This document shows positions 21,916 through 59,436 of a stretch of 64,000 nt of DNA, in pieces (the first letter of the stretch is position 1; every line of letters starts with the position of its first letter). This DNA comes from Monocercomonoides exilis PA203 (taxonomy: Eukaryota > Protista > Preaxostyla): assembly GCA_001643675.2 (NCBI GenBank), contig LSRY02000006.1, positions 1,116,001 to 1,180,000 of the forward strand, in the 5' to 3' direction. The notes below the pieces were generated by a model. It saw nothing but the letters and a program-made list of their open reading frames with translations. It made no database searches and had not been told where the DNA came from. The position numbers and the translations under genes were made by a program.

Positions 21916-21917
21916 TA

Positions 21918-22050
21918 TTTAAGCTCAAATAAAGATGAAGATGTTTCTAATTTGCTTGTTCACTTTTCAGTGTTCATTTATTTGCATTCAAAAAATAATT
22001 CCGAACCGAAATTTTTATATGAAAAAATGTGATTAGAAAAACAATCACCC
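21918..22050. mobile_element. Right part of a diverged GG-terminal MITE
   Basis: GAACCGAAATTTTTATATGAAAAAATGTGATTAGAAAAACAATCACCC|ATAT aligns with the right end of the 37592-37847 element. Confidence 0.6.
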
Positions 22051-22322
22051 ATATCGAAAAAATGATTATTTGTGATTATTCGAAGGTGTTGGTTGAGTCT
22101 TGAATAACATGAAAAAATTTGATAGAAATTATTGTTTTTTTAAAAAATATCTCCTTTTCATTTTGAAGCGAAGAAAACTTCTTTGAACTCCATATTTTCA
22201 AAAAGGATGTTGAACAAAATGTTGAATAAAGAGAACCACAACGATAAATGGAAGAAATCATTTTGAATTTGTGGATGATTGAGTTTGCAAAAATCGCCCA
22301 TATTAATATAAATCGGATTAAA

Positions 22323-25300
22323 ATGAAGATTTTATTTCTTTTGTTTTTGTCTTTTTTTGTTGGAAGGGCCCAATGCTACGTGTTTGCAAGCATGCACAAT
22401 GTTGATTTGCGTGAAGTGCACAAGGAAAGCGAGATTTTAGCGCCAGGCTCAAATGAACTTTGGAAAATTGAAAAAAGCCAGTTTTTGTGTGGAAAGGAGA
22501 CAGAAAGCGACGCGAGGACTCCACCGGCCGAGAAGGACATTGCGGGGCGACTATGCCACACTTTTATTGCGTCCTGTGTTTCAGCTGATAATTCGTCGAT
22601 AAGTTGCTTGAACATTCGATTCACTTCAGCAGGGGGAAATGCAATTGTGCGGCTATTGGGGCAATCAACGTGTTTTGCAGGAGGCTGCCTGCTTTCATCG
22701 CCAGCACCTTCAGTTGATGCATTTGTTCACTCGTGCGGCGGATTCATTTGCTTTTTCAATTTGTCTTTGATTCCAACTCGATCGAATTGCCTTCTTCCGT
22801 CGTTGGTTTCTGTTCATCAGGCAGGTGCACTTCAAGGTTGCCAAAGCAGGGTTGAGGTCGAGGGCTCAGCTTTTTCGTCTTTTTTGTTGAGCAATTCAAA
22901 GCCGCTTGTCCAATCATCGACTTTTCACTGGGTCTCAGTCCAATCCAGCACCTTCCAGAATATATCGCAGCAACGTCCCGAGAGAAGCACATTTGGCAAA
23001 TATTGCGCGTCATTCGCGCTGTCGTCCTGCATTGTTTCATCTGTGACCAACCCGACCGAAGGCTGCATTGTTCCAAAAGTGTCAGATGGCTCTCTAAATC
23101 TTTTGAACTCGACATTTTTGAGATGCTCCAAAACAATTGGTTTGAAGATTAATCACGCAGGAACAGATGACACGTGCGTTGACAACTGCATATACGAGCA
23201 ATCTTTAGGTACAATTATTGTCCATTCTTCTTCTGGCATTTGCATTGTTAAAAATACAGATTTTCAGAATTCGTCAGTTGAAAGATGTATCTTTGAAAGG
23301 CAAAGCTGCGAAATGCAATCGATAAACAACAGTTTTTGTTTAATATCAACAACTAATTACGGATCATGCTTGGACCTTTGCGAGGGAACAGGTCCTTTAA
23401 CGATCAGAAATAACAACATGACATCTTGCCAATCAAGTTGGGGAGGAGGTTGTTGTCACTTTCATAATGGGTTTTCAGATGTGGATATTCTTTTAGATTG
23501 CTTATTTGGGAATTGTAATATGATAAATAGCTTTTATGAATGCAATGGAGGCGGTGCTATTTGGAATGGGGAAGGAGCTAAAATATCATATTCAAATGTT
23601 GCATTTGAAAATTGTTGTGCCAATGCATCTGTTGGAGGAGCAATATGTTTTGACTCAAGAAATGTTTCTTTGACACATTACAGTTCACTTTCTTATTGCT
23701 TGTTTTTTGGGTGCGATGCGCTTGGAAACGGAAAAGATATTTATGCAGCAAATCCATGGCAGAATGTATTGAATGAGAGTCAATTTGTTCTCTGTTGTAC
23801 AAATAAGCACTTGGAAGCCAATCGTCTAGTTTTTGCAGAGAAAGGGGATAAAAGCAGTTGGATTGGAAAGCTTGGTAACATTTATGCAGACGTCGATGGG
23901 ACGGACACTTTGGGATGCGGATGGGCAAAGTTTCCATGCTTGACGATATTCAACTCTGTTGAGATTGCCGTTGTAGCGAGCAAAGGCACTCCAGTGTACA
24001 TAAATATAGCAACAGGTTCATACGTGGAACGATCACTTACAATAGACTCGAAATTTCTTTCATTTAAAGGATCAAGGGACTTTGGGACAAAGTTGAGTGC
24101 CAATTTTTCGAATACAAAAGCTCTTTTCCAAATATCAACTGGATATGCGTTCCTTGCAGGATTGGTCGTCGTCAGGAACTCTTCCACATCGACTTCTCTG
24201 CCATTGTTCTGGATTTCTTCTGCAACAGGAGAGCTTGTGCTCTGGTCGTGCAAAATAACCGCTGAGCCATCGCAAGCTTCTCCATTCACCACGGCATTTG
24301 CATCGATATCAGCAGGACTCTTGAATGTGTCGAGCACAGCTGTTGAGTCGATGGTATTTTCTGACGTGTCAGCTCTCAGGATGGAGTCGTCGACGCTGGA
24401 CTGCTTCAATTTGGAGAATGCGACTTTCAGGGACGTCACGCGAAAAGAAGGAAGCGGAACAGTTTTTGATATGGACTTGGGGAGTGGGGACGAGCTGAAA
24501 TTGGACGGGGTGTTGTTTGAAAGGTGTGTGTGCAGCAAAGGGAATGGAGGATGTTTGAATTGCATTGTGGAAGCAGGGGGGAGACTGACACTTGGCTCCA
24601 CAAAAAGAATTGAAATGGAGGGATGCACAGTGCCGCAGGACATGTTCAGCGAGGGAAAAGGAGGAGGAATGCATCTGAAACTAGCAGGAAGTTCATCGAG
24701 TTTTGGGATACGCGATGCTGCGTTCGGCGGATGCGAAGCCTGGAAGGGGAACAACATATTTGTTGATGCGGTTTCGTTGAGCTCGTCAATAACGAGGGGC
24801 GCATTCGGGTTCACACAAGCAGGGATGGTTGACGACGATCTGATGGGGTTTGAAGAGCAGTGCAGGACGGAGCCTGTTCCTCTTCTTGCATATCTTCAGA
24901 CCTTTTCTGGAGCAGTGGTTGTTGGGGGAGCGAAAAACAGAGATTTCACAGGTTGCGGCACAGCCAACTATCCATGCGGAAGCATTGGATATGCAGCAGG
25001 ACTTCGATTTCCCAGCGGCAAGAGATTCATCTCGTTGAATGGAGGCTATGAATGGACAGAATATCTGCTCTTTGATGGTTATGGGTGGGAGGTGAAAAGC
25101 CTCACAAGAGGGCGAGAAATAAAAGTGTGGAGTGGGAGTGGCAGCCGGTCTGAAGGAATGGTGACAGTTGAGATTGCATCGCTCATTGCGAACTTGACTT
25201 TTTCAGCATCTGCGCAGCTTGGGGAGCATTCTTGTTTCCTGCTGTGCCAGTCTGAGGAGCTGTCGATGGCTGACTGCTCGCTGAAATGCTCATCGAGTGG

Positions 25301-28300
25301 AAATGTTGCATTTGGCTTTGGGTTCATAAAGATAAATGGAGGGAGCCTGCTTTTGAGCCGATTTTCCACATTGTCGCCGATTGCGTTTGGAACTGCTTCG
25401 CTGATCAGCCTGTCTGGATCTGGGATGCTAAACTGCGCAGGATGCACGATGAACAGCATCAAGAGGATGAGTGGGAGCGGAGGATGCATTTCGATTGGGA
25501 AGAAGAATGGGGTTGGAAGCAGCCAAAGCAGAAAGATAGCAATTGATGGATGCAGCTTCAGTGGCTGCTGTGCTTGTGGGGATGGAGGAGGGGAAGGAGG
25601 GGAAGGAGGAGGGATGAGTGCGTGGCTGGGAGGAAATGACGATCTGGTTGTGAATGGGTCGACTTGGTTTGAGGAATGCAGCGCGCAGAGTGAAGAAGGA
25701 TGGGGTGGAAAGGGGGGAGGGATAAGCATTCGCTGTGACGATGCTTCTTCTTGGTTTGGAATAATGAATGCAGTTGTATTTTCGAAGGTGAAGGAGAACA
25801 GGGCGGAATATGGGAAGGATGTGTTTGTTGGGTGCGAGAGTGGGATTTTGCTTTCGCAAATGATCAACACGACTTCTTTTGGGTTTTTTGATTCGTCGGA
25901 ATTGCCATCAGACGCTTTGGCTTTGAGCGGGAGCGAGAATGGAAGTGGCTCTGCGGTGATACCTCTGCATGTGTATCTTTGCAGTCTCCAGGCAGAAATA
26001 ATTGCAGACGGCGACATTGGGGCTGATCACACGCATTGTGGGTTTCCTTCTTTTGCTTGCATGACGATTGATTATTGCATTGAAAATCGGATAAGCAGCT
26101 GGTTGAACAGCATCAAGGTTGTCTCCGGGTCGGCAATAAAGCAGGAAATTGCGATCTCCTCTGCACCTGCGAATGTCTATTCTGAAGCGCTTGCGCCTGT
26201 CTCAGTTCAAGATGCAGGGGGAACAGCACAGGATGGGCTGGTGATGTGCCACTCTCCTGTTTTTCTCACAAATCTGTCGCTGAGTGTGCCGAGGCTGTTT
26301 GCAGCAGCAAGAAAAGCCTTTCTCTTCTCTTCGTTGTCGCTTTTCATTGCCAACTGTTGCCTGGAATATTCTTCAGAAAATGTGAACGAACCTGTTTCCT
26401 TTGCTGCTGTCTTTGTGGACAGGGGAGATGTGGTGATGAGTGGATTCAAAATGGAAGTGGGTGCAATGCTCGCGAATTCGCCAGTTTGGATCTGGAATTA
26501 CAATTCCATAAAGGTTGAGAACAGCAGCGTGAGTGGAACGAGGATGATAAATGGAGATGGAGGGTGCTTATTCATTAACGAGGCGAATGGGGATGGGAAA
26601 AGCATATGCATCCAAAGATGCAAGTTCAGTGGCATGTGTGAAGAAGGGAATGGAAACAGAGGCGGGGGGGTCATGGGGAAGGTTGGGAGCGGAAATGCGG
26701 TCAACATTAAAAGCACAAGTTTTGAGAATTGTGGTGTGCCTTCAGGAGATAGCGAAAATGGAGGGAAAGGATTGGGGGGTGGGATGTATCTTTTTTTGAA
26801 CGAAAGGGTCTGGAGCCTCGCCCTCGATAATGTCAGTTTCAGCGGCTGCAGTGCATGGAAAGGAAAGCAGCTGTTTGTTGATGGAGAAGACCTGAGGCAG
26901 ATTGCCGGCGATTGGCTGCAGTGCTTCAAAGCAGAAGCCATGTTGGCGGAAGACATGATGGGGTTTGAGAGAAGCACAGCAAATCGAGAATTCGAGATTC
27001 CGCTTGTGCTGTATTTCCGAGGATTTGTGGAGCCTTGCTTTATTGGGGGAGCAGAGGAGAACGGGCTTGACTACACAGGCTGCGGGTTTTCAGATTATCC
27101 GTGTGGGACGCTGGAGTATGGTGGCTTGATCCGATTTGGGGGTTTGAAGGCGGATTTGAGGCTCATGGAGCATTTCTGTTTTGCGAAGCCAATTGTTCTG
27201 AGGTCTCAAGAGATGGACATTGAAGCAGAGGCAAACGGAACGCTGATAAATGTGGTGTCTGATGGAACAGGAGAAGGCGAGGGACTCATCGAGACAAGCA
27301 ACGCTATCTCATTCAGTGGAATAACATTCAATGTTTCGACAACATTCGCAGCAGCCGAAAGAAAGTGTCTGCTTCTGTGCAGCGGCTCCGCCCTTTCGCT
27401 GGTTGATTGCTCGGTGAACGCGCAATCGAAGAAGATCGACTTTGGGTATGTGATTGTGAGAGGTGGTGCTCTCCATATTCTGAGGGGGGTGCTGAACGAA
27501 ATAGAACTGGTGGGAGCGCTTGTGGTTGAGATAAGCGGGGCAAGCAGCCGATGCACTCTAGAGGATGTGGAATGGAACAACCTGAAGACAGGGTCAATCG
27601 AAGGGCTTGTTTGTGCGAAGTCGAAGAGCCATGTTGAAATGAAAAACTCGAAAGTGTCAGGGCCGACACAGTTTGGGAATCAGGGGGTCTTGTTCGTTGA
27701 GGAATTGGCGAGCGCAATGGTTGAAAAGAGCAACTTCACACTTTTGACGAGAAAGGAAGGAAACGGAGGGGTAATTCAGGGAAGTGCTGGAGCCGGGAAG
27801 AGCTTGAGTGTGAGTTTTTGCTGGTTCACTTTTATCAGCTGCCTGGGGAGTGGGTCGAAAGGAGGAAGCGTCGTTGCAACTGTGTCAGCCGATGGGGAGC
27901 TGCTGTTCAACAACAACACAGTTGAAGAGAGCAAAGTGAAGAAAGCAGACGGGCTGGGGGAGGGCTGCACATGGAGTTTTTGAGCAGCGAGGTTGGATAC
28001 TCGATGAAAAACAACAAATTCCTGAGCAACGATGCGATGCTGGGATACGATGTGTATCTTGTGTGCCCGCGCCGCGGATGATGATTGACAGAAATAAATG
28101 GGCAGGGTCGGCCACAGAAGGCCAGGAGGAGAAAACGATGTGGGTGATTGATCCAACATTTCCGGATGGAACAGACACGCTTCTGAAGTATCTGTTTCCG
28201 AGAGCAGAGGAAATAATATATGTGAACACGGTCAATGGGCACACAGACGGGTGCGGCACTGACGATTATCCTTGCGAGGAGCTTTGGTATGCTTCGGGGA

Positions 28301-31300
28301 AAATGACCGAGGAGAAGCGCATTCTACAGATTATTTCTTCTTGTGAATTGCGGGGAGCGATCGAGAGGGGAAATGAGCCGACGACGATTGAAGGGAAAGG
28401 GGAGGATGGAAGCCGGCTGATTGTGGGGAAAGAGGGGCACTTGAAGATGGCGGTTGGCGCTGCACTCACGACACTGACGATTTCGAAGATTGGATTTGAG
28501 CTGCCGGGAATATCAGAGTTTGGGGAACTGGTGGAAGTCAGTGTGGGGACAACGTATTTTGTGGAGTGCACATTCGGGAGCGGCGATCCGGAAGCATGTG
28601 CAGAGACAAGCATGCGGATAATAACAGGGAGAGGCGGAAAGCTCTCATTTGATGGAGTGGTTATAAAGAACATGGTTTTTAATTCTGATTGCGGAATCTT
28701 TTTGAGCGGCGAGGTTGGGTGCAGTTTTGACTGTGTGGAAGCGAGCAACATCCGATCAAGCGGAAAAGGAATGGTTGTTGGAGAAGGCGGAATGGAGGTT
28801 TTGGTGAATGAATTGAGAAGCACAAAGTGCTCATTTGGGGATGGCAGCTTTGCTGTGCTGAAGAAAGTGAAGAGGCTGAAGTGGAAGAATGGGACGAGCA
28901 TGATGGGTTGCAGGAATGAAGGAGGGGACGGTGGGTGCGGGGTTATTTCAGTTGAAGGAGAAAGCGATGTTGAGATGAACGGGACAAGCATCAGGTTGTG
29001 CTCAGCAAGCGAGGATCGCGGAAGAGGAGGCGGGCTGTATCTGGAGATTTCAGAGAATCCTCTGGTGAATATGAAACTGACAGACATAACGTTTGCAGAT
29101 AATTTAGCAGTTGAGGGAAAGACATGTTTGTTTTGAGCACAGATGTGAATGCATCTGTTGTGAGAGAAAGGTTTGCATTTCAGCTTCAGAACGAGAGAAA
29201 CGAAAGCGTTGCTGATCTGAAAGGCACAGATGATGTTTTGTTGAGTGGATCAGTTATTGATCTCCTGGTGTTCTTGGTTCAAAGGAAGGAGAGTTCGATT
29301 CTTGTATCAAGGGGCGGAATGGACATTCTTGGGTGTGGAAGCGCGGAATTCCCTTGCCTGTCGTTCTGGAGAGGATATGAAAACATCGACTTAGATGCGC
29401 AGAATCGAGCGATACGAATTGACACAAGAGCAAATATCAAAAATCATTATGACCTCTCATCGTTCGAAGTTGTATCGAGCAAGGTAGATGAGAAGTGTGT
29501 GATGCTGTTTGAAAATGGCATGGAAGCAAGCGAAGAGAAAAAACCGATTATTCAGAACTCGAAAGAATTGAAGTTGGAATTGGTTCAGCTTTCGCTTCCA
29601 TCCTCTTTCTCAAACAACGAAGGCGTCCTTCTCCACTCTTCATCGGCCAATTCTTTCCTTTCGCTCAATGGATGCACCTTCAACCAAAACAGTGGATCAG
29701 ACTTGGAGTTCTGCATTATTCGTTCTGAAGGAGGCGATGTTCAATTGCTGGATTGCGATTTCTGTTCGCTGTCTTTCTTATCAACTCCTGTTCAGCTGAA
29801 TTCTTCGTGTGAAATAATCGGATGCAATTTTTCATCGATATCTGCAAGGCCAAGCGAGAAAGGGGGAGCAGTTTATGCGGAGCTGGTGGGTGAAGCGACG
29901 TTTTCGATGGGGCAAACAGAAACAGTTGGGTGCGGCTGCTCTGAAGAATGTGGAAGAGGCGGGTTTATTTTTGTTGAATGCCAAGGTGCGTCAACAGACA
30001 ATCCTTTTGTTTTTGGCGAAGGCATTTCTTTTGCTGGACACAAGGCGCGGGCAGGGAAAAACATATTCATCTCTGCGGGGGATCTGAACAAAAGTGTGAC
30101 GCTATCGTCATTCTGTTTTGACTTCACGAAAGGGAGAGAAGACGAGCTGCTGTTTTGTGGAAGGGATTTGGTCTGGGAAGACACGGGGTTGCTCCGTTTC
30201 TTGGAGACATACGTGAGCCAAACAATATTTGTGAGTTCAGGTGGATACGATATTATGAGGTGCGGAAGCGAAGAGGATCCGTGCAGGAGCATGTGGAAAG
30301 GGATGAGGCAGATAGAGCGAGATGCTCCGCAGACGTGGATAAAAATAGTCGATGAGACGATTGTGCAGGATTCGTTTGTGCTCTCAAACTTTATTATTGA
30401 GCGTGAAGAGACAGAGGAGGAAAATCGAGGAAAGCTGATATTTGCAAACAAGACAGCCGATGGAACCGACCCAGGGATACGCAGCGAGGATGCTTTGCAG
30501 CTGAACAGGATTTCTGTTGTGCTGTCTAAAGGATTTTGGAACGAGCAGCTGTTTTCGATTGTTGGGAAAAGTGGGGTGATTGGGATGAGCGATTGTTCAT
30601 TTGCGACAGAGGCAGGCGGAGACTTTCCAGCGAAGGTTGGGCTTTTGCTGATGGAAAGCGGAGTGTTGAATGTTACGAAGCTGGCGGTTGAGAATGTGAT
30701 GTCGGAGGTGGGTGTGTTTGCAATCAGCAAGAGATGCGATTGCGTGATGCAGCAAGTTGTGGCTTCGGGGTGCACATTTTGTGATGAAAGCTTTGTGAAA
30801 ATAGTTCCAAGTGGAAATGGAATGGAGAATGCAGCTGAATGCGCTGTTGCAATCAAAGACTCGACTTTCCAGCTGATCACTCGGAATGGCAACGGGCCTG
30901 CGATTATCAGTTCGTCTGGGTGTGCCGCTGCTCTATCAATCAGCGGGTGCACATTTGATTCGTGCAAGGCAGTTGAATCGGAGAAGGGTGGCGGTGTTTT
31001 TGAGGAGCTTCATAGTGAAGGAGCTCTGTGGATGAGCAAGTCGTCGGTGATTCAGTGTGGATGCAGCAACGACAACGGAAAAGGAGGAGGGATTTACATA
31101 TATGCCAATTTTGAGGGAGCACTCTCGTTTCTGTTTGAGAAGATGACATTCAAAGGAAACAGCGCGAAAGTGGGGAATGACGTCTTTGTTGAGTGTGTTG
31201 ACATCGAGAACCAGATCAACGAAACGCAGTTTTGTTTTGATTTGCGAGAAACGGCATACGCGCGGTTGAATGCCATCTACGGGATGGACACAAGGAACCA

Positions 31301-34298
31301 CAAAAGCGACACGAATCTGATGGACTTTGTCACGATCCACCAGGCGGACACAATCATCCTGTCATCGGATCCATCGAAGAACGGGAAGAACGATAGGCAG
31401 TGCGGAACGCTGAAGCTTCCGTGCGTGACGCTGGGCTATGCGCTGAGCCATTTGACGAACGATGTCGATAGCAGGCTTCTGGTGGATGGGGAATCTTGTG
31501 TTGAGAAAGAAATAAATCTGGAAGATCTTTCAGTGGCGTCTCGGAAGGAGGATGTTTCGAAAGTGGCGGTATTCGGTGATATTGCGCACACAAGAGCGAG
31601 CGTGATGGTAACCACAGGCAGTGTCTCTGTCTCGAAGATTGAATTTTTCTTTGATTCAGATTTTTCTTCAGCTCACCGCGTTCTGCTCACAGCAGAGTCT
31701 GGAAGCCTATCATTGTTTTTGTGCAGTTTTGCTCAATCGCAGGAAGAAAGAAGTGCTCAAACGATTGGACTGACGCTCGTCTCAATCGAAAATGGGCAAG
31801 TGACTGCTTCACAGATAAAAATATCTCACATGCACTTTTCTGCCGAAGCTTCAGTTCGAATCGCTCGTTTGAGTGGTTGCGTGTTGCTCTCTGAAATGAA
31901 AGTGGAAGATGTTGTTCTGAATGGAGGCACTTTCATTTTGGTTGAAGGAGCACATCCGTTTTCTGAACAGCAGAAAATAGGAGGAGAAAAGACCGTTGAG
32001 CTAAAAGATGTGTCATTTGACAATGTTTTATCAACACAGCAGGAGAAAGGGGTCATCGCTTGCTCGTTGTTCAAAGGAGGGATTTATTTGGCGAATTGCA
32101 CTTGTTCCAATGCTTCTTCGAAGTGTGTAACAGGAAGCGTGATGAGTTTTTGCGATTGCAGCAACGTGACATTGCATTGGAACGTGCTTCGAGGTGACCT
32201 GGAGCATTCAGAAAAAAGTGAAAACAGCAAAGAGGCGGACATTTGCCAATGGACATCTTCAGCTGTTTCTTTTGTCAGCAGCACAGCGACAATGAAAGAT
32301 ACCACGATTGCAAACAACTCTATAGGAGGAATGAGCATGTTTGGAGGAAGCATGATGATTGAAAAAAGCGAATTCATAAACAACAATCCGAAGATCGGAA
32401 ATTATCAATCAGTTCGGAGAAATATCGTTTGTGCAGGCTCTGGGTTGTTGAACGTTGCAAGTGTGAAAGGAGGAGACGGAGCGAAGGAGGGCTCATCGCT
32501 GTGGTTCCTAAACGAAGGGTGCACGCTGGGCGGGATAGCAGAAGAAAGAGAATCAGCGTTTTTCATTCCGGAACTTAAAAGTGTGAAGGGGGAAGATGAT
32601 GGAAGTGTGACGAGGCTGAAGTTCGTTGGGCTGCTTCTTGTTCCTTGCAATCTATCGTTTCGGGTGGTGAAGAGGGTTGGATCGGAGGCGTTGGTGGAGA
32701 GATACTCATTTGAAGAGGGAGGGTTTGTGTCGGAGGCAGAAGTATTAGGGGAAGTGCCTTCAAAGACGATTTGTGAGGCAGGAGAGGAGACAGAAGTGTC
32801 GTTGTGCATTCTGTATGGAAATGCGGAGACACCTTCGCCAACAAAGGAATTCATTTTGAAGAACGGAAGCAATCCGAAAGCAAATGGAGAAGAAAAGCTT
32901 GTTGAAGGTGGAAAAGAAGGAAAATCATCATGGGCGCTTATTGTGATTGTGATATTTGCTGTGTTATTCGTTATTGCTATGATTGGTTTTATTTTGTTTG
33001 TTATCCGCTGGAGAAAGCAAAAGAGAAGAACGGAAGAATTGGAGATAATTGTGGAAGACACAGTGAAGAAGGATCCGAAGGCGTTTGAGATGGTGACGAT
33101 GGAGATGTCGCCTGAGGAGCAATGGAGGAGAGCAGAGAGGGAGGCAGAGAAGAAGAACGAGGAGAGAATAAAGAAGAGGGTGTATGAGAAAAGCTTGGGA
33201 CACTCAGAGTCATCAGAGCATTTGCTGAGTGAATGTGAATCGACTGAATACATTCTTGGAAGAGATTCAGACAAAATTCCTGAATGGATGCTGGAGAAAG
33301 CAGACGATGATGAAAAAGAGAAAGAGGAGAAAAGGAAGCAAACACCATCGCCATCCATCTCATCCACTTCAACGACAGATACGTCAGACACAGAATCCAC
33401 TTTTGTTCGGAGAGAGGACTTGTGCCCAACCACTTCATCGATGTCGAACTTGGTGGATGCAATGGCCTGCTCCTCGCCTCATGAGAAGCTGATTGTGGAT
33501 CTGAGGGATTCGCTGTTCATGTTACTTCATGGGAGGAACGAGAAGAAAGAGATGGCGATTGGCTCTTTGGAGGAGAGGGAGCTGACAGCAGCCCAGATCC
33601 TGTTCTGGGTGGCTAATCTTGCGCTCCATTCTTTCGACGAAACGGAAATTCCGCTTCAGTCGCTGAGCAGTCTGAGTCCGCACATTGTGCTGTTCTCAGA
33701 GCACATGGTGATCTGCATTGTGATGCACTCTGATTTCCTTTCATCTGATGATTCAGACTCATCGTCGATCTCCTCGTCGACTGTTGTGACATCTGCAAGC
33801 GATGATGACAGTGACTCTCTGCCCTCATCAGCGTTTGAGGATGACTCGGATTTCAAGAAAGAGTGTCTGAGGTGGATGGCGCCGGAGCTGTTGAATGGAG
33901 CGAAGAAGCATGGGACGAAGAAGACAGTGGTGTTCTCGATTGGGATGATGCTGTGGGAGTGCCTGACGCTGGAGATCCCGTTTGGAGAGTATGAGGCAGT
34001 GATTGCTGGGGATAAGATTGTGAAAGGAGAAAGGCCAAGCATGGCGAAGATTGAAGGAACGTCAATGGAAAAAGTTGTGGAATGTTGTCTGCTGGGAGAA
34101 CGTGAAAAGCGGCCAGGCTTGAATGATGTCAAGCGGGAGTTCATATCGCACCAACCAAAAAGGTTTCTTCAAATGACGAGGTCAGATGCAGTTTGCGTTT
34201 CGAGCGAGATTGTCTTTATTTATCATTCAGATGAAGACAACATCAAAAGGGCCGCCGACACGAAGGCGAAATCAAAAGCATCCGAGTCATTCGTGTGA
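22323..34298 (+). CDS. Giant (~3,990 aa) type-I membrane protein: signal peptide, repeated Cys-rich/beta-helix modules, TM helix, C-terminal degenerate kinase domain (left copy; 3 apparent 1-nt frameshifts)
   Basis: Signal MKILFLLFLSFFVGRAQC; eight CG-x5-(P/A)C modules with GGG/GGA-x-hydrophobic repeats; TM WALIVIVIFAVLFVIAMIGFILFVI-RWRK; kinase C-lobe RWMAPELL, VFSIGMMLWECLTLEIPF and ERP. Frameshifts at ~27960, ~28066 and ~29115 are intact in the right copy. Confidence 0.85.
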
Positions 34299-35165
34299 AA
34301 CGATTCAATTAAATAGAAGTTATGAATAAAGAAGCTGTCGTGGCTTTGTTTGCGTGTTGATCAGATATTTGCGTGTCTTTCTTGAAAACAATGTGAGGTT
34401 GATATGTATTTTAAAAGCTCTTTGTGTTCAAGTGAATATCATAGAATTTTTTGTTCTTATAACAAGCGATGCTTGACCTGAAGCGATTATCATTCTGTGG
34501 CACAAACTTGCATATTTAGAAGTTTCTAAATATATATGTGGTGTTTATATGCAGCAGCAGCAGAAACAACAATATGTATATGTATATTATCCTCTTTTCT
34601 TAATTTTCAGCTCTTTATTTGACACTCAAATTCCGATTAACGTGTTTAATCACATTTCACTCTATTTTTTGCAAATATGAAATACAACATCAAATGTTTT
34701 GGGCATTTCTTCAATCCATATTCAAAGCAAAATTTAGAACACAGCCATAAGCCGATGCTAAACAAGAATTGTTCAAAAATGAAATTATTTGCATCGAACA
34801 AGTTGCGAAAGTTGTGTTCAAGTCAGATTATTTTCCAATCAAGATTCATTGCCAAAACTGAAATTTCGTTGTGATCGAACAAATTAACTGAATATCTGAG
34901 GCGCATGCCAGATGAAGGGCCTATTTTTGCAACTGCTGCAATGTGAAGAAGTTAATTACTTTTGAACTGCAATGCGAAATTTTTGAAGTGTTACAAACGA
35001 TAACTAAAATTGATTTATTCAACATGTTGGTGTATTTCTTTGAGTTCTTTCAAAAATTTCAGAATCATTTATTTTCTCATAAAAAAAAATTATAATTAAA
35101 ATTAAAATTACAATAAAAAATAAAATAAAATAAAATTGAATGAAAAATTAGAAAATATATATGTA

Positions 35166-35210
35166 CAGTCAGTGCCAAACACGATCCATGGTGCGAAACC
35201 CGGCCCATTA
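35166..35210 (+). repeat. Terminal inverted repeat of pogo-like transposon (3' end), mirrored at ~46092-46136
   Basis: TA|CAGTCAGTGCCAAACACGATCCATGGTGCGAAACCCGGCCCA: CAGT terminus after TA, with two ~19-bp imperfect tandem repeats. Confidence 0.7.
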
Positions 35211-35562
35211 CAAAAGTATTTAAAATGACTAACTCTTTGTAATTCTTTCAATTCCATAAGTGATAATGAATAATTTCAACTATTCGAAATCACAGGACCA
35301 TTTTATGACGCGTGGACAGTTTCATGATAGCTTTTGAAAAAAATGAAACAAAGAATTTATCTTTTTGCATTTTATTGAATATTATAGAAATAGTAGATAT
35401 GAAACAATAAAAACGATAATCAAGTTTCGATAATGCTCGCAAAGAGTGTTTTGCTTTCAAAGATCACATTTTTCCATTGTATTTATTGAAGTACTCTTCT
35501 CTTATGCGTCTTTCTTTCGAATCAAATGAAGGAGAAATTTCTCTGGGAGGGTGAACAAAATA

Positions 35563-37408
35563 TTATATTTCGTCACAAGAAGTTGATTTCACTTCTTTTT
35601 CATTGACTTTGACCATTTCAATCATTCTCTTTGCTTTTTTTCTCGAAAACTTTTTTTCCTTTGCTGGTTCTTTATTCAACATTTCATTAAGTTCTTGTCG
35701 ACTATGTTTATTCTCACGTTTCTTTTCAGAAGATGAAGTTGGTTTTCCAATTTTCGCAAGCTGCTTTTGAAGAAAATGGAAATGCTCTTTTGTTGATTCA
35801 ATTTGTTTCATTAGCTCTGATTCATCCATCTCATTTGCTCCTTCTGTTGGCTTTTCGTCGGTTGTATTTTCGTCGGTTGAATATTTTCTGTGATTAACGA
35901 TCAACTTTGTAGGTTCTTTTGATATTTCAGAATCTTTTAGAGATGAATATTTTGAAGGTTGTGAAGAAGGTAATTGTTTGTCGCTTTGAGGAGAATAATT
36001 CCAAAACAACTCTTCTCTTCAATCTCGCGATGAAACAGAAGTTTCAGAATTGCCTTTATGATTTTGTATTGGGGATCCAGATATGCGATCCAAAACTGGG
36101 GCTGCAGCAACAGACCAAACTCCGCTTTTAATGAAAGCTGATTTGATTGTGGAAGGCATTGTTGCTGCAGCAATTGCTTCAGGGAGAGTGTCAGCAAGTG
36201 ATGCTTTGTTTGAATGAATTGAAAACGGAGAAGGAATTTGAAATTTGTTATAAAGTGTAGTTTTCAAACGAGATAAGATGCATGAATCACATGGTTGTTA
36301 AAGATGAGTCATGTTGTGAGGAAAGAATTTAATAATTATGTTGTGTTCCTCAGCAGATCTTGAAACAGAATCATCCGTATGAGTAATATGATTATCCATC
36401 AAAAACAGGGCTTTATGTGTAGTGGATGGTTTAACTTTGGACACGATCCATGAAATCCTGCTATTGATCATGACACTTCTAAAAATCTCTTTAGTCATCC
36501 ATCCCGATGAGGAAGGAAGAACTTCAATATCGAAAGATGAAAGTGAAGAAAATTCTTTGGGTAAACATTTTGTTGGCCAAAGAAGAAATTTTCTTGGAGA
36601 GGATCCATCTGCACATACACATAAGCACAACGTTGAATTTGGCACTTTCGGAGGAGCTGGAGAAGATGGAGGAATTTGATTTTTCAGGCAAGCAATCAGT
36701 TTACTTGGACTTTTATTCAAATTCAATGAGGTTTCATCAAAATTAAATATTTTTGAAGAATCAATGTGATTTTCGTTAATCACATTTGACAATTCTTCAA
36801 ACCATTGTCTGACATTCTCTGGTGATTGAGCAGCAATTTTTGACATGTCTGTTGGCTTGAAATTGCAGCATGAATAAACTCACTCCTTTTTAACAACTTG
36901 TATGCACATTTTTCGTTTATTTTTCTTGGCTCGTTTTCATCTGTTGAATCCTTTTCGAAAATATCCACGCACTCATAAAAATGTGTATTTAAAAAAATGA
37001 AAAGTCAAAAACAAATAAAACCATGTTTTGAACGTCATGCACTCGAACAGTTTCCTGTTCTGACAACTTCACAAGAACTTGATTTTCTATTATTTCGAGC
37101 TGTGGCGAATTAATTGTTAAAGGATGCCCATCAACTCCAATATCCCTTCCTTCCTTTTGCGCTTTGATTCCCCTGAGCCAAGCTCCTTTGGATTTAAGTT
37201 TTTCATTCACGGCAGTTTGCCATTTCAGTGAATAATCATTTCGAATTGCAAATATTTTTTTCGTTGTTGAAGGAATGGAACGATATTTGCTGGATGCAAG
37301 TTCGCGATGAAGTTGAAGAGGAGAGAGATATGTTTTGTTGCTCAAGTTAAATGGGTCATGATCAAATTGAAAATCCCGATAACTGTTTTTCGTTACAACT
37401 TTTTGCAT
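35563..37408 (-). pseudogene. Decayed pogo/Fot1-like DDE transposase (left copy)
   Basis: KIFNFDET, LCVCADG, SSGWMT, LFLMDNH and FFPHNMTHL*QPCD are DDE_1 motifs. In-frame TAA and TGA plus a frameshift. Confidence 0.85.
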
Positions 37409-37591
37409 TACTTGATATATATCATCGTTTTTTGTGTCAATTTCTTTCTATAACTCAAACATGATATCATTTTTTGGCATAAGTGTAAAAAAAAATACCT
37501 CCTTCAGTTTAGCAATTTTTTCATTTCAACAAAATAGAAATAAATAACATAAAAATTCAACACTTTTGGGTGGAGCAGTTTTTTGATATAT

Positions 37592-37847
37592 GGGTGATTA
37601 TTTTTGAAATCATATCTTTTTTCGGGGTGTTAATTTTCAAAAATTGAAAGTTTTTCGAAAGAAAATTTTAATCCAAAAGAGAAGAAGCACGATAATTGTT
37701 TTTAAAAACAAATGTTTTCACCTAATGAAAGATTAAAATGCATCCAATATGCCTTTTCACTTTTCAACGTTCATATAAAAATATTCAAGATAAGTTTTTG
37801 AACCGAAAATTATGTATGAAAAAATTTGATTTCAAAAATAATCACCC
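37592..37847. mobile_element. 256-bp MITE with GGGTGATTATTTTTGAAATCA TIRs and ATAT target duplication
   Basis: ATAT|GGGTGATTATTTTTGAAATCA ... TGATTTCAAAAATAATCACCC|ATAT. Confidence 0.85.
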
Positions 37848-38460
37848 ATATCTTCAAAAATTTCTTTGACAAAAAATAATTATGATCAAAACCATAATTA
37901 AATCTTTATTTATATCTTTTTCGTTAAAAACTTTAATTCCTGCGAATTGAAAGTTTATCTTTGAATTTAATAACACAACACTAATAATATCACAAGTTAA
38001 TTTGAATCTACATGATTCTTATCAGAGATATGGTATATCAGCTATAGATTCATCTCGATTAGGTAGATAAATATTATCGATTTATGTGAATCTGGTGGTT
38101 GTTATCATCTTGTGTAATAAGTTGGAATAGGCAATGATAATAAGATAGAGATTGATGATTATTGCTGATACTCTTAGGGGTTTATCATGATTAGATTTTC
38201 AGTGATGTTCTATAAAGATGGAGTCATTGATAGGTGTAATCGAGATATATCTATAGCTGATATACTATATCTCCAAGAGGAAGAATTAGCTAAAAGATTA
38301 ACTGGAAGTGTTCAAGTTGGTGAATCAATGGTGAAATTGTGTGAAAATTGGTGTTATCGTCGATGAATAACATGAGTTGAACATGAGTTGAACCTGTTGA
38401 TGTGATCGTTTGTGAAATCGCAAATAAAAATAACTGATTTTGTTTTTTGTTTTATAGTAA

Positions 38461-38715
38461 ATGGGTCGGAAGAAGATATACGCAACTGTGGAAGAAGCGA
38501 AAGCGGCTCAACAAAAACAAATAAAACTGTTTCAGGAAAAACGAAAGGAAGAAACTAAGTATTACAACGAACATGTATCTGAAAAACAGAAGAAGTTGAT
38601 TAAGATATTGAGGAGAAAGCTTATCGAAAGTGATGAGTTGTTAGATGAGTTGATGGAAAAAGTTAATGGGTGTTTGCCTGCACAGGGTGGACAGGTTAAG
38701 CTGGTCAGGAAATAA
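38461..38715 (+). CDS. Small basic/helical protein (84 aa, MGRKKIYATVEEAKAAQ...), probably element-encoded
   Basis: Intact ATG-TAA ORF after an AT-rich leader, with a protein-like K/E composition and a GRKK N-terminus. Confidence 0.6.
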   Translation: MGRKKIYATVEEAKAAQQKQIKLFQEKRKEETKYYNEHVSEKQKKLIKILRRKLIESDELLDELMEKVNGCLPAQGGQVKLVRK

Positions 38716-38722
38716 GTGTGTT

Positions 38723-39430
38723 CTGTGGCTGGGAAATATTGAGTTAAATCTCCGTGCTGGAAGCGTAAACCAGAAACCGGATCTATTTATTTCATCTGAA
38801 AACAGCTGCCAACCTGTTATTTCTGCCAACATGAGTATTTTACCCCTTATTTGTCATGATTATGAGGTTTTTTTTATTTTCGATTATATTATCATTTTGC
38901 CACATTGCCACATGTTATCGTTGGTGGAACACGTTCGCTGTCATCATATTAGGAAGTAATTTTTAACTTTTGATGGAACAAGAAACTTGTTCTAACTTGT
39001 TCCGGTATGATTTTCAGGGAAATATCGTTTGTTAATCCTAAAATTGATGAAAAATTTGTGAAAAACGAGTGAAAAACAGGTAAAAACAATTAATTGTCGG
39101 AACACGCCGGACGGAACAAGTGACCGTTGGTGTCACCGTTACCCAAACCGATTTTTGTTCTGCCTGCTTTTTGTTTATTATAAAAAACAACGGTTCGGTT
39201 TCTTGAATAAATGGTGTTATGGTTGATTGCCTCATTGTCGATTTTGCTCAGAGGCGTTAATTGTTTTGCCTGGACCAGGTTGACTGAGCAGTTAATTTGG
39301 TGCTGTGGCTGGGAAATATTGAGTTAAATCTCCGAGCTTTTCACCTGGACTGGGTGGACCAGGTGGACCGGGTCAATTATATTCTAGAAATAATGTGGGC
39401 AAACGGGCAAAGTGAACAAAGTGGGCAAAA
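38723..39430 (+). repeat. Cluster of direct repeats / iteron-like motifs at the inner end of the arm (mirrored at ~41872-42579)
   Basis: 32-bp direct repeat CTGTGGCTGGGAAATATTGAGTTAAATCTCCG at 38723 and 39303; 10-bp-period (G)TGGAC repeats at 39345-39372; GGGCAAA-type repeats at 39397-39430. Confidence 0.8.
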
Positions 39431-39570
39431 TACATTTAATGTGAAAATTAACTGTTATCGTTCATTTTCGACATTAATCTCAACGTCATCTTTCCCGTAA
39501 ATTTACGTTTCTAAAATAAATCTGTTTCAAAAAAAAATTGATTCTTTTAATTTAAATCAAATTGGCAACC

Positions 39571-41820
39571 ATGAGCACAAGCATAACAGATATAATTGGT
39601 AACAACAGCAAAACGGTTCAACTCCTATTAAGCACGGAAGAAAAAACATTGAATGAAAGAATTGATTCTGACGTTGTTGATTTATGCAATTATCAAAAGC
39701 ATGATCGAGGCAGTGGTTCTGTTGTTACTGGAAGAGCATTATTGGAAAACAATGTGTTAAATTTAACTGTTATAAACATTGACATTAACAAATCGTTAGA
39801 CGACGAGTCCACACAATCTGATGGATCAAAGATATTAAACAAACTGGACGAAGACGATGTCGTTGTTCTAACGGCTTCAGGGGGATAACACATTTATGCC
39901 AATACCGATGACTTTTTCTCCAACTTCAACAGAATGATTAAATGTTGCACTTGCGATGAATTTGATGTTGATATCATGACATCGTTGGATGAGTGCAAAC
40001 GATCATTAATTGCATTACCAAACAGTAAAGTGCGTAAGGATCATCGATCAAAGACAAACGTTTATCAGCTTGTTAGAGGTTCGTTTGACTCAGCAATTAC
40101 ACGAAATGTTAATGATATATTAAACGATCTCTCATTGAAACTGTATATAAAAACATCTGATGAAATAGATAATATTGTTAAATTAGATAAGGACAACGAC
40201 AACATCAGTGACGAATTAGCTAATGTTTGAGTCAACGGGTTGGAATGTTTTGTCATACATAACGATACGAGGAATATGACAATCAACAGAGAAGTCACGT
40301 TTTTCACACTGTTTCAAGTGATAAATTCATTGCCGAATGAGCATATCGAATTATCTTACGACAGAGTACAAAACAGTGACAATTTGACAGCTAACGCACG
40401 TGATAACTATTATACTGCCAAAAAAACGATACAGATGTTTGAGATCATCGCCATTTGTGTTAGTTAAGATGTTAAATAAATGGAATAATGACTATTACAC
40501 AAACGAGATATTACCGTTACTGAGATACGACATCAATATTGTTTAACCAATAGATATGTCTGATTCGTTTTCCATGACAGATATTCGACGAAAAGCTGAG
40601 ACAAAACAATACAAAAACGCTGATGATGTTATAAGTAAATTGTCAAGAGTTATTAAATTTATTGAAACAGGAGCAATGCATATATATAAAAAGATTTCAA
40701 AAGATTCGATAAACGATGGGTGATAATATTTGTTACAGACACAAATATGGCACGTAATTTAAAGATGATTAAACGATGGAAAACTGAACATAAAACAACA
40801 ACAGCATATGACATTCTACTGTCTTGTTTGTTGAAACTAACATTGCAAGGAGTTATGTTAAACGCAAAAGACACAGCTAATGTATTCTCAATATTCCAAG
40901 GTTTCAAGAACAATTTACGAGAACATGTCAATATGGCAACAATCTCAATGTTTCTGAACTTTGTTCGTGAGGTTATTGCTGATTAAAACGACGATGCGTA
41001 TGAATATGTTATTAACTGGATTGCAAACATTGTTCAACACCCTGGAATTATAAATGAAACGGCATTTATATTGAAAGGAATTCAAGGCATTTGGAAAAAC
41101 AGATTCACACGTGTAATATCTGAACTATTCGCTGGTTATTCCAGTCGAAACGTTACAGAAATAGGAGAATTGACTGGAAACTTCAACTCTGTTGTTGAAA
41201 GAAAAATGTTGATTGTACCGAATGAACTGAAAAATTGTGGAGACGACAGATTAGCAAATTGCAATGCGTTGAAGTCTGTAATAACAGAAAACATTATAAG
41301 AATAAATGAGAAGAATCAACCTCGTAGAACCGCAGAGAACGTGGCAAATTTCATATTTGTGACAATCCACGCATTTCCTGTATAGATTGAAACAGGCGAT
41401 CTCAGATATGTTGTTCTCGCATGTAACGGTAAATACAAGAACAATTTCGTTTATTTCAAACAACTATATTCTTCATTCACTACAGAGTTTTATGATAATT
41501 TGCTCACATATTTGATGAACAAAGATCTTTCATCATTTAACGTTAGATCAATTCCAATGACAGAGGCTGAAATAGATATAATAGAAGCGACTAAAAGTCC
41601 GTTGGAAATGTGGATTTGTAATGATTAAGACGAGCTATGTGTTGGAATGAATTGTACAGAAGCTCTTCTCTGCAAACCTGTTGAAAAAAAAAGATAAGAA
41701 CTTCCAACTGCAACTGAAAGATAAATGTGAACGTAAACGACAAACAATAAATGGTATACGTTAATGGCATTATATATTGAAAGATGAATACAAACTGTTG
41801 TACAAACAAACTGTTTCTGA
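39571..41820 (+). pseudogene. Decayed bifunctional primase-polymerase (Prim-Pol/AEP) + superfamily-3 helicase of phage/plasmid/NCLDV D5/NrS-1 type
   Basis: N-terminus LTVINIDIN...VVVLTASGG*HIYAN resembles the DxD and TxSGGxH motifs. C-terminus has NWIANIVQHPG, LKGIQGIWKN (Walker A, G>W), LTGNFNS, LIVPNE (Walker B), LKSVIT..IRINEKN, NFIFVT and GDLRYVV. Multiple in-frame stops and frameshifts; no introns evident. Confidence 0.82.
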
Positions 41821-42586
41821 GAAAGGGGATAATTAATAGAAACAGAAATGTTACTGTGACATTTTTGCACGTTTTACACACTTTGCTCACTTTGCCCGTT
41901 TGCCCACATTATTTCTAGAATATAATTGACCCGGTCCACCTGGTCCACCCAGTCCAGGTGAAAAGCTCGGAGATTTAACTCAATATTTCCCAGCCACAGC
42001 ACCAAATTAACTGCTCAGTCAACCTGGTCCAGGCAAAACAATTAACGCCTCTGAGCAAAATCGACAATGAGGCAATCAACCATAACACCATTTATTCAAG
42101 AAACCGAACCGTTGTTTTTTATAATAAACAAAAAGCAGGCAGAACAAAAATCGGTTTGGGTAACGGTGACACCAACGGTCACTTGTTCCGTCCGGCGTGT
42201 TCCGACAATTAATTGTTTTTACCTGTTTTTCACTCGTTTTTCACAAATTTTTCATCAATTTTAGGATTAACAAACGATATTTCCCTGAAAATCATACCGG
42301 AACAAGTTAGAACAAGTTTCTTGTTCCATCAAAAGTTAAAAATTACTTCCTAATATGATGACAGCGAACGTGTTCCACCAACGATAACATGTGGCAATGT
42401 GGCAAAATGATAATATAATCGAAAATAAAAAAAACCTCATAATCATGACAAATAAGGGGTAAAATACTCATGTTGGCAGAAATAACAGGTTGGCAGCTGT
42501 TTTCAGATGAAATAAATAGATCCGGTTTCTGGTTTACGCTTCCAGCACGGAGATTTAACTCAATATTTCCCAGCCACAGAACACAC

Positions 42587-42841
42587 TTATTTCCTGACCA
42601 GCTTAACCTGTCCACCCTGTGCAGGCAAACACCCATTAACTTTTTCCATCAACTCATCTAACAACTCATCACTTTCGATAAGCTTTCTCCTCAATATCTT
42701 AATCAACTTCTTCTGTTTTTCAGATACATGTTCGTTGTAATACTTAGTTTCTTCCTTTCGTTTTTCCTGAAACAGTTTTATTTGTTTTTGTTGAGCCGCT
42801 TTCGCTTCTTCCACAGTTGCGTATATCTTCTTCCGACCCAT
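42587..42841 (-). CDS. Mirror copy of the 84-aa basic protein
   Basis: Identical translation to 38461-38715. Confidence 0.6.
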   Translation of the reverse strand: MGRKKIYATVEEAKAAQQKQIKLFQEKRKEETKYYNEHVSEKQKKLIKILRRKLIESDELLDELMEKVNGCLPAQGGQVKLVRK

Positions 42842-43454
42842 TTACTATAAAACAAAAAACAAAATCAGTTATTTTTATTTGCGATTTCACAAACGATCAC
42901 ATCAACAGGTTCAACTCATGTTCAACTCATGTTATTCATCGACGATAACACCAATTTTCACACAATTTCACCATTGATTCACCAACTTGAACACTTCCAG
43001 TTAATCTTTTAGCTAATTCTTCCTCTTGGAGATATAGTATATCAGCTATAGATATATCTCGATTACACCTATCAATGACTCCATCTTTATAGAACATCAC
43101 TGAAAATCTAATCATGATAAACCCCTAAGAGTATCAGCAATAATCATCAATCTCTATCTTATTATCATTGCCTATTCCAACTTATTACACAAGATGATAA
43201 CAACCACCAGATTCACATAAATCGATAATATTTATCTACCTAATCGAGATGAATCTATAGCTGATATACCATATCTCTGATAAGAATCATGTAGATTCAA
43301 ATTAACTTGTGATATTATTAGTGTTGTGTTATTAAATTCAAAGATAAACTTTCAATTCGCAGGAATTAAAGTTTTTAACGAAAAAGATATAAATAAAGAT
43401 TTAATTATGGTTTTGATCATAATTATTTTTTGTCAAAGAAATTTTTGAAGATAT

Positions 43455-43710
43455 GGGTGATTATTTTTGAAATCAAATTTTTTCATACATAATTTTCGGT
43501 TCAAAAACTTATCTTGAATATTTTTATATGAACGTTGAAAAGTGAAAAGGCATATTGGATGCATTTTAATCTTTCATTAGGTGAAAACATTTGTTTTTAA
43601 AAACAATTATCGTGCTTCTTCTCTTTTGGATTAAAATTTTCTTTCGAAAAACTTTCAATTTTTGAAAATTAACACCCCGAAAAAAGATATGATTTCAAAA
43701 ATAATCACCC
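43455..43710. mobile_element. Mirror copy of the 256-bp GG-terminal MITE
   Basis: Reverse complement of 37592-37847. Confidence 0.85.
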
Positions 43711-43893
43711 ATATATCAAAAAACTGCTCCACCCAAAAGTGTTGAATTTTTATGTTATTTATTTCTATTTTGTTGAAATGAAAAAATTGCTAAACTGAAG
43801 GAGGTATTTTTTTTTACACTTATGCCAAAAAATGATATCATGTTTGAGTTATAGAAAGAAATTGACACAAAAAACGATGATATATATCAAGTA

Positions 43894-58981: not shown

Positions 58982-59436
58982 TTTAATCCGATTTATATTA
59001 ATATGGGCGATTTTTGCAAACTCAATCATCCACAAATTCAAAATGATTTCTTCCATTTATCGTTGTGGTTCTCTTTATTCAACATTTTGTTCAACATCCT
59101 TTTTGAAAAACTGAAGTTAAAAAAATAATTTGTTCGATTCGAAAAACATAAGGATTAGGTTTTATTAACAAAAGTGTTTTGAATACTATTTTTTCGTAAT
59201 AAAAACAATCTCTGGATGTTTATTTAAGGTAACAAATTCATTATACGAAAATAACGAGATCAAGCTCATATGGGACAGATTTTTTGAATTTAAGAAAAAA
59301 TCTATGATTTGTTCCAAATTATTTCTGAAATCGTAGAATTATGATTCTGACATTAAAGTGATATTTTGGTATATTCACATAGAAAGGGGCAAAAAAATTT
59401 CACAGAAAAAAAAAATAAAAAATACAGAAATAAAGA

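What the first reader, a model, noticed from the sequence alone, without database searches (positions are those of the whole stretch)
37860..43442. Candidate novel self-replicating element: a Prim-Pol/SF3-helicase gene flanked by inverted repeats with iteron-like motifs and a small basic ORF
Seen: the only non-duplicated DNA in the palindrome (39416-41886) is one intronless, decayed primase-polymerase + SF3 helicase gene. It is bracketed by inverted blocks with GGGCAAA and GTGGAC short repeats, a 32-bp direct repeat, hairpins and an intact 84-aa GRKK protein pointing inward. Known: AEP-SF3 helicase fusions are replication proteins of phages, plasmids, NCLDVs and some Polinton-like elements, not core eukaryotic genes. 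Inference: this is the remnant of a ~5.5-kb linear replicon (plasmid- or transpoviron-like) with long TIRs. No capsid, protein-primed PolB or integrase is visible, so it fits no standard eukaryotic transposon class.
Basis: partly seen in the sequence, partly recalled or inferred. Interest (0 to 1): 0.88.

Follow-up and report, generated by a model that had tools for sequence, protein, structure and literature searches.

The report
Dead Maverick-type primase centring young palindrome
A broken DNA-copying gene, of a kind also found in Maverick (virus-like) elements of gut protists, sits at the centre of a near-perfect 17-kb mirror duplication of ordinary host DNA, so its 'long inverted ends' are mostly that likely recent duplication, although short, older inverted repeats at the gene's edges hint that the gene may once have moved on its own.

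Summary
The sequence features are real; the reading as a 5.5-kb replicon with long TIRs is not supported. The mirror runs 17.2 kb (22195-39415 / 41887-59109; 1 substitution, 8 one-base indels) and takes in host kinase-family genes, a DDE relic and a MITE. Contig depth of the arms is about twice single copy, so the duplication looks real and young. The core (39571-41836) is a long-dead gene (7 internal stops, 3 frameshifts) of an AEP primase-polymerase plus NrS-1-like SF3 helicase family, confirmed by fold on an intact relative. The family is Maverick/Polinton-linked: both close relatives with usable flanks lie beside Maverick-type genes (A32 ATPase, DUF4108, PolB motifs, HNH). No such gene is in this window. 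Signs of a gene-sized, capsid-free cassette remain: imperfect inverted heptamer arrays older than the duplication, roughly 10-15 related copies in the genome, hundreds of related proteins in Trichomonas, and assemblies that break right beside intact genes. The 84-aa ORF belongs to a repeat about eight times more abundant than the primase. Best reading: a stray Maverick-type replicase cassette whose short inverted ends likely seeded a foldback duplication.

The parts
22195..39415 (+). Left arm of the 17.2-kb inverted duplication (host genes, DDE relic, MITE, small-ORF repeat)
   Evidence: arm contigs about 2x single-copy depth
41887..59109 (-). Right arm; differs from the left by 1 substitution and 8 one-base homopolymer indels
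39571..41836 (+). Pseudogene of an AEP primase-polymerase + helical linker + NrS-1-like SF3 helicase; stops near 39886, 40228, 40544, 40984, 41383, 41626, 41762; frameshifts near 40420, 40700, 41685; AEP motif I and Walker A altered
39394..39430 (+). Left heptamer array (GGGCAAA-type); its last 15 bp lie inside the unique spacer
41863..41908 (-). Right heptamer array; beyond the perfect junction 12 of 14 bases still match the left (P about 1e-5) and the array goes on in its own decayed form: likely an old short inverted end
39293..39447 (+). Repeat block (32-bp repeat, GTGGAC/GGACC repeats, heptamers); joined to the primase 5' region in another copy, and to the 38819-38927 block in a third
   Evidence: joints 39411>39492 and record 11
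38723..38754 (+). First copy of the 32-bp direct repeat (second at 39303-39334; mirrors near 42548 and 41968)
38461..38715 (+). 84-aa basic ORF (GRKK); only relative found is MONOS_17995, 92% identical; mirror at 42587-42841 on the minus strand
38012..38776 (.). High-copy repeat (summed depth about 80-180x single copy) holding the hairpin 38016-38282, short sub-repeats and the GRKK ORF
37591..37848 (.).
36298..36879 (-). DDE_1 (pogo/Tc1-type) transposase relic inside the arm
   Evidence: (E 2.9e-7)
29124..34298 (+). Host surface-protein/kinase family gene inside the arm (a second family member starts at 22248)
59110..59400 (-). Outer junction: sequence loosely similar to 21900-22194, likely the upstream region of a paralogous host gene; degenerate telomere-like repeats follow at 59563-59720

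Best explanation
A dead primase-helicase gene, likely a stray replication cassette of metamonad Maverick/Polinton-type elements, sits at the centre of a 17.2-kb near-perfect inverted duplication of host DNA that likely formed recently by foldback at old short inverted repeats at the cassette's ends. Step 1 (shown): the gene family is an AEP primase-polymerase fused to an NrS-1-like SF3 helicase, with catalytic motifs invariant in 66-67 of 67 intact relatives. Step 2 (shown for relatives, inferred for this copy): the family travels with Maverick-type elements; here it has come loose from capsid, pPolB and integrase genes and spread to roughly 10-15 copies before decaying. Step 3 (inferred): the heptamer arrays 140 bp before the start and 35 bp after the stop were its origin-like ends, in inverted orientation. 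Step 4 (inferred from yeast models): a break beyond the cassette was resected, the single strand folded back at these inverted arrays, host polymerase copied 17 kb of flank, and the new end was healed by recombination with the upstream region of a paralogous host gene. The dead enzyme in cis did not do this. The 84-aa ORF repeat shares sequence blocks with the cassette's left flank but is mostly found without the primase.
For: Arms extend over host genes with 1 substitution in 17.2 kb while the core has 7 stops and 3 frameshifts. Inner 15 bp are an imperfect inverted repeat, 12 of 14 matches after the first mismatch. Arm contigs at depth 202 and 225 against 96-115 for single paralog contigs and 95 for the core's own allele in X4; 52-80 against 35-40 in X1. 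An X4 contig starts exactly at 22195, the outer junction. Fold: residues 18-186 match pRN1 prim-pol (Z 9.8, rmsd 3.6, 150 aligned), 341-729 NrS-1 helicase (Z 26.6, rmsd 4.2, 362 aligned). L008 full-length relative lies beside DUF4108 (E 5.7e-6, just under cut-off), a Pox_A32-like ATPase (E 0.002) and a PolB-motif gene; L003/L002 relative beside Pox_A32 (E 2.4e-6) and HNH. DUF4108 is typical of TvMav3, and 8.6% of TvMav3 carry a 'Poxvirus D5 protein'. 171 query proteins from those loci hit nothing in the window but the primase. Foldback at widely spaced, divergent repeats and repeat-mediated healing are shown in yeast (abstracts).
Against: No listed contig bridges the centre, so the inverted arrangement rests on the assembly; all four runs are one sample and may be the source; X2 and X3 depths are too noisy to show 2x, and X2 record 9 runs through the outer junction without a break. 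If the organism were diploid, 2x could mean homozygous versus hemizygous; I found no paper on ploidy. Only 2 independent close loci had informative flanks; neither shows the heptamer arrays (no BLAST match). Whether the Trichomonas clusters (198 and 350 members) are the Maverick 'D5' gene was not shown. The true outer end of the cassette and any target-site duplication cannot be read here because one flank was overwritten. L008's polymerase call rests on motifs and weak hits (E 0.3-3) only.
Confidence: 0.58

Rival explanations
1. An autonomous, capsid-free AEP-SF3 element with true TIRs (anywhere from about 150 bp to 1.5 kb, possibly including the GRKK ORF) that replicates from heptamer origins with its own primase-helicase; the GRKK repeats are its non-autonomous derivatives. 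The 17-kb palindrome is a later accident at one dead copy.
For: Older imperfect inverted arrays at both gene edges. Same block precedes the primase in another copy, and is shared with the GRKK repeat family. 14 of 21 Logan-only contigs with intact relatives carry 300 bp or less of total flank (median 158; this window's unique flank is 175) against 5 of 13 for the Maverick ATPase control (median 625), p 0.011. Primase copies (about 10-15 of this subfamily plus 8 annotated proteins of others) outnumber the 6 capsid hits listed for M. exilis. This copy is closer to parabasalid and metagenome sequences than to other M. exilis copies (AU p 1e-5). A 2026 preprint reports repeat-bracketed and lone AEP genes and proposes the same mobility.
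Against: Both close relatives with long flanks lie among Maverick genes without such repeats. Short contigs are equally expected for an accessory gene inside multi-copy Mavericks. GRKK repeat to primase ratio is about 8:1, not 2:1. No integrase, no TSD, no episome seen. The 84-aa protein has no relative outside this host.
Confidence: 0.25
2. A plain relic: a fragment of a decayed Maverick left among other repeats. The 15-bp inner similarity is just the micro-homology at which a template switch happened, and the primase is at the centre by chance.
For: Repeat-rich neighbourhood (MITE, DDE relic, GRKK repeat). Family is Maverick-linked. Any foldback selects for a short inverted match at its centre.
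Against: The match is a periodic array present on both sides within 140 and 35 bp of the reading frame, and another copy has the same block before its start; no other Maverick remnant lies within the window.
Confidence: 0.12
3. The palindrome is an assembly artefact (foldback read or misjoin of two separate copies of the 17-kb segment).
For: Arm differences are almost all homopolymer indels, typical of long-read consensus error; no listed contig spans the centre.
Against: Arm depth is about twice core depth in the two deeper runs; distinct inner and outer junction sequences; a contig break exactly at 22195; a foldback read would not leave a 2.4-kb unique spacer.
Confidence: 0.05

Closest known systems
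Trichomonas vaginalis class 3 Mavericks (TvMav3) and other metamonad Maverick-Polintons/PLVs
   Same: Carry primase genes; 8.6% carry a 'Poxvirus D5 protein'; DUF4108 and A32 ATPase neighbours seen beside the relative in L008. AEP-SF3 is a known alternative replication module of PLVs.
   Different: This copy has no capsid, ATPase, pPolB or integrase nearby; unit is about 2.5 kb, not 10-28 kb.
Phage NrS-1 prim-pol/helicase, pRN1 ORF904, SaPI5 and poxvirus D5 primase-helicases
   Same: AEP domain plus SF3 helicase with C-terminal winged-helix region; best structural matches.
   Different: About 20% identity; here in a eukaryote chromosome, and dead.
Lone or repeat-bracketed AEP(-SF3) genes of polisuviruses and Bodo saltans virus (bioRxiv 10.64898/2026.10.13.758929)
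   Same: Replicase gene without capsid or integrase, multi-copy, proposed to move alone (section 13 read).
   Different: The Bodo saltans virus copies lack flanking repeats; the passages seen do not cover metamonad chromosomes.
Transpovirons
   Same: Capsid-free replicons derived from PLVs.
   Different: Encode a pPolB-SF1 (Tlr1-like) helicase and parasitise mimivirids; this gene is AEP-SF3.
Foldback inversions (inverted duplications) of yeast
   Same: Identical arms, unique spacer bounded by pre-existing imperfect inverted repeats, outer end at repeat homology (abstracts).
   Different: Natural case in a protist; mechanism not observed.

Membership tests
AEP-SF3 primase-helicase (NrS-1/D5-like) | N-terminal AEP fold with DxD, H and third D | tested here: met
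   Intact relatives: D67/67, D67/67, H66/67, D67/67; fold Z 9.8 to pRN1 prim-pol. In the window copy the first D is replaced.
AEP-SF3 primase-helicase (NrS-1/D5-like) | SF3 helicase with Walker A, B, motif C and arginine finger | tested here: met
   DUF5906 E 4.8e-14; NrS-1 E 2e-28 and Z 26.6; motifs altered in the window copy.
Maverick/Polinton (this locus) | Protein-primed PolB and rve integrase | tested here: not met
   No ORF over 105 aa in 37860-41886; L008 PolB-like protein gives no tblastn hit in the window. No rve query was available, so a decayed integrase is not excluded.
Maverick/Polinton (this locus) | Capsid proteins and A32 packaging ATPase | tested here: not met
   0 of 120 ATPases hit the window; no room for an intact capsid gene. 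A metamonad capsid profile was not available.
Maverick/Polinton (this locus) | TIRs of 100-900 bp with target-site duplication | tested here: inconclusive
   Only 15 bp of older inverted repeat is visible; the rest is masked by the duplication.
Maverick/Polinton (gene family) | Close relatives encoded among Maverick genes | tested here: met
   2 of 2 independent close loci with flanks (L008; L002/L003).
Transpoviron | pPolB-SF1 (Tlr1-like) helicase | tested here: not met
   Protein is AEP-SF3; definition.
Transpoviron / linear plasmid | Free linear DNA form | not testable with these tools
   Only assembled contigs were served.
5.5-kb TIR element as proposed | Inverted identity ends at the element ends and TIR divergence matches core age | tested here: not met
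   Identity continues 15.7 kb beyond 37860; 1 substitution in 17.2 kb.
5.5-kb TIR element as proposed | Small ORF co-occurs with primase at about 2:1 | tested here: not met
   Depth about 80-180x versus 6-22x; summed contig depth is only a rough measure.
Foldback inversion | Two real copies of the arm | tested here: met
   About 2x depth in X1 and X4; X2 and X3 noisy.
Foldback inversion | Pre-existing imperfect inverted repeat at the centre; homology at the outer junction | tested here: met
Foldback inversion | Inverted arrangement on single molecules | not testable with these tools
   No long reads served; no listed contig bridges the centre.

The most novel reading that the evidence does not exclude
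Metamonad genomes host an undescribed class of one-gene, self-copying elements: an AEP-SF3 primase-helicase bracketed by inverted heptamer origins, without capsid, integrase or pPolB, that hops in and out of Mavericks and between gut protists, drives non-autonomous GRKK repeats, and leaves inverted ends that seed large palindromic duplications of host surface-kinase genes.
Probability: 0.25. Interest if true: 0.82.

Novelty: new variant of a known kind. Interest (0 to 1): 0.45.

Why it matters
If the cassette reading holds, it gives a multi-copy chromosomal test case for the recent proposal that AEP-SF3 replicases of Polinton-like viruses move without integrase or capsid: hundreds of Trichomonas copies and many intact gut-protist genes allow ends, target sites and empty sites to be read directly. 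Separately, the locus is a natural example of a dead element's inverted ends at the centre of a young duplication of host kinase-family genes, one of the largest gene families of this host. If the cassette reading fails, this is an ordinary Maverick relic in a segmental duplication.

Tried and rejected
No whole genome was held, so genome-wide flank alignment could not be done. No RNA holder listed. IMG/VR scans gave only distant relatives, 24-28% (L001, L007). Heptamer pattern in viral contigs: 1 hit, at chance level; 32-bp repeat core: 0 hits. GRKK protein: no family at a useful E-value, none in viral contigs, in G001 or in fetched loci; the profile-library and atlas searches for it could not be run, so distant relatives are untested. 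No tRNA and no Rfam family above chance. Plasmid collection: only 23-29% helicase matches. Single-sequence fold of the L008 PolB-like protein failed, pLDDT 31, and Pfam/PHROG/NCBIfam/PDB gave no hit. ATPase search meant to find M. exilis locus tags next to primase genes listed only 120 of 483 hits, none named. Trichomonas locus tags were not found in the supplements held, one of which is cut. Bellas Table S5 is cut, so positions of the 6 M. exilis capsid hits were not seen. Alternative genetic code considered: all three stop types interrupt the core and host genes read in the standard code, so it is decay. Earlier-findings look-ups returned nothing. Paper searches listed no description of a stand-alone AEP-SF3 element in metamonads; subscription journals and Repbase are not covered.
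Full report
Setting. The window is eukaryotic, standard code, with large surface-protein/kinase genes. Protein hits point to the oxymonad Monocercomonoides exilis or a close relative: the 84-aa ORF is 92% identical to MONOS_17995. This is an inference; no genome was held.

The palindrome. Self-BLAST shows one inverted duplication of 17.3 kb. The perfect arms are 22195-39415 and 41887-59109 and differ by 1 substitution and 8 one-base homopolymer indels. They contain two host genes, a DDE_1 transposase relic, a MITE and the small-ORF repeat. Contigs of four DNA runs (one sample, one study; possibly the source) were laid on it. In X4, arm-unique contigs have depth 202 and 225, single paralog contigs 96-115, and the core's own allele 95. 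In X1, arms are 52-80 and the core's own allele 35-40. X2 and X3 are too shallow to tell. An X4 contig begins exactly at 22195, though X2 record 9 runs through it. So two copies are likely real; the inverted arrangement itself rests on the assembly, and ploidy is unresolved.

The core gene. 39571-41836 reads in four pieces with 7 internal stops. A one-frame query with X at stops found 115 proteins among 7,329 candidates, the best about 750 aa, intact and about 50% identical, from gut-type metagenomes, Trichomonas vaginalis, Histomonas, Monocercomonoides and Streblomastix. A model of intact P0003 from 67 sequences (pLDDT 87) matches pRN1 prim-pol over residues 18-186 (Z 9.8) and the NrS-1 helicase over 341-729 (Z 26.6). 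Catalytic residues are invariant in 66-67 of 67 intact relatives but altered in this copy. The gene therefore died long before the arms were copied; TIRs of the same age could not be 99.99% identical.

Family context. Scans of three collections gave 8 loci, 3 of them close (L002, L003, L008; L002 and L003 are the same element). L008 holds a full-length relative 88 bp after a DUF4108-like gene (E 5.7e-6, 26.7 bits against cut-off 27), with a Pox_A32-like ATPase (E 0.002) and an 836-aa gene showing PolB motifs by eye and only weak hits to phage protein-primed polymerases. L003/L002 hold a helicase-only relative between a Pox_A32 ATPase (E 2.4e-6) and an HNH gene. Sullivan et al. 2025 (PMC12289875; section 6 and supplement 1 part 1 read) list DUF4108 in 58.8% and 'Poxvirus D5 protein' in 8.6% of class 3 Mavericks, the latter among sporadic genes; that this is the same gene as clusters P0012 (198 members) and P0090 (350) is likely but was not shown. 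Bellas et al. 2023 (PMC10120064; passages and supplement rows) list 6 capsid hits for M. exilis. AEP-SF3 is a known PLV replication module (passages: 10.64898/2026.06.19.733378; PMC11161782). None of 171 query proteins from these loci hits the window outside the primase.

Signs of a discrete cassette. (a) Inside the unique spacer, 12 of 14 bases after the first mismatch still pair between the two sides (P about 1e-5), and the heptamer array continues differently on each side: an older inverted repeat 140 bp before the start and 35 bp after the stop. (b) Another copy joins the same block to the primase 5' region (joint 39411>39492 in both runs laid). (c) Summed depth over the core is 6-22 times single copy, with listed paralog contigs about 86-91% identical; 8 further annotated M. 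exilis proteins belong to other subfamilies. (d) Contigs with intact relatives end close to the gene: 14 of 21 Logan-only full-length hits have 300 bp or less of total flank (median 158) against 5 of 13 ATPases (median 625), p 0.011; six Logan-only hits (five short, one distant) were left out. Over all sources, 70 of 115 primase hits against the first 70 of 120 ATPases gave medians 530 and 960, p 0.007. An accessory gene in multi-copy Mavericks would give the same pattern. (e) On an N-terminal tree of 25 rows, a clade of this copy with three other M. exilis proteins is rejected (AU p 1e-5, quick tree); the helicase tree of 42 rows agrees without starred support. This suggests separate acquisitions; direction was not tested. 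A 2026 preprint (10.64898/2026.10.13.758929; section 13 read, figures and supplements not seen) proposes that AEP replicases move alone.

The small ORF. It lies in a repeat (38012-38776) with depth 80-180 times single copy, about eight times the core, separated from the primase block by low-copy DNA (38930-39235, about 6x). It shares the 32-bp repeat and, in another copy, the heptamer block, so it may be a non-autonomous relative, but it is mostly found without the primase. No relative outside this host was found; the more sensitive searches could not be run.

Mechanism. Shown: gene identity, decay, arm extent, older inner repeat, outer junction in loosely similar upstream DNA of a host gene family. 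Inferred: resection from a break, foldback at the two arrays across 2.4 kb, copying of 17 kb, healing at a paralog. Yeast work shows foldback at repeats up to 30 kb apart and up to 25% divergent, and healing through repeats (PMC10164571 and PMC10622511, abstracts only). That short repeated motifs beside a primase-helicase gene serve as its origin, as in phage P4, is recalled, not tested.

Other papers seen as passages only: PMC7845603, PMC8767320 (its supplements had no hit), PMC3671162, 10.1101/2024.03.23.586382.

Verdict. Observation confirmed; long-TIR linear replicon not supported; a Maverick-derived, capsid-free primase cassette with short inverted ends is the best reading (0.58), a truly autonomous one-gene element remains open (0.25). 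Interest 0.45.

Noticed in passing
window 37591-37848 (mirror 43454-43711); related ends near 22052, 60933-61143, 61440, 62105: MITE family with TA flanks and several hundred copies by depth, next to a DDE_1 transposase relic at 36298-36879; likely a pogo/Tc1-type pair.
   Followed up: partly
window 21513-21922, 60929-61147, 61635-62038: Three further small palindromes (220-410 bp, 78-97% arm identity); probably foldback-type repeats.
   Followed up: no
window 59430-59720: Five degenerate telomere-like repeats (59563-59720) and a tRNA-like stretch about 400 bp beyond the outer junction; ARAGORN calls no tRNA. Could mark an old healed end or an interstitial repeat.
   Followed up: partly
window 38304 (other copies): Some copies of the GRKK repeat carry a 35-bp double-hairpin insertion; similar short GC-rich hairpins occur in the Maverick-like L008 (841-870, 1297, 1337).
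   Followed up: partly
L008 1-9384: A Maverick-like protist contig is filed inside a bacterial MAG (G001); its ATPase is deposited as a Bacilli protein.
   Followed up: partly
L003 889-1013: A 66-bp direct repeat with short periodic motifs lies just upstream of the helicase-only relative; no significant match to the window's arrays.
   Followed up: partly
P0093 (MONOS_9167): Looks chimeric: N-terminus of a different subfamily (27% to this copy), helicase part 69% identical to this copy.
   Followed up: partly
window 32632-33965: The C-terminal part of the host kinase-family gene has very high summed depth (hundreds of copies), in line with a large gene family.
   Followed up: no
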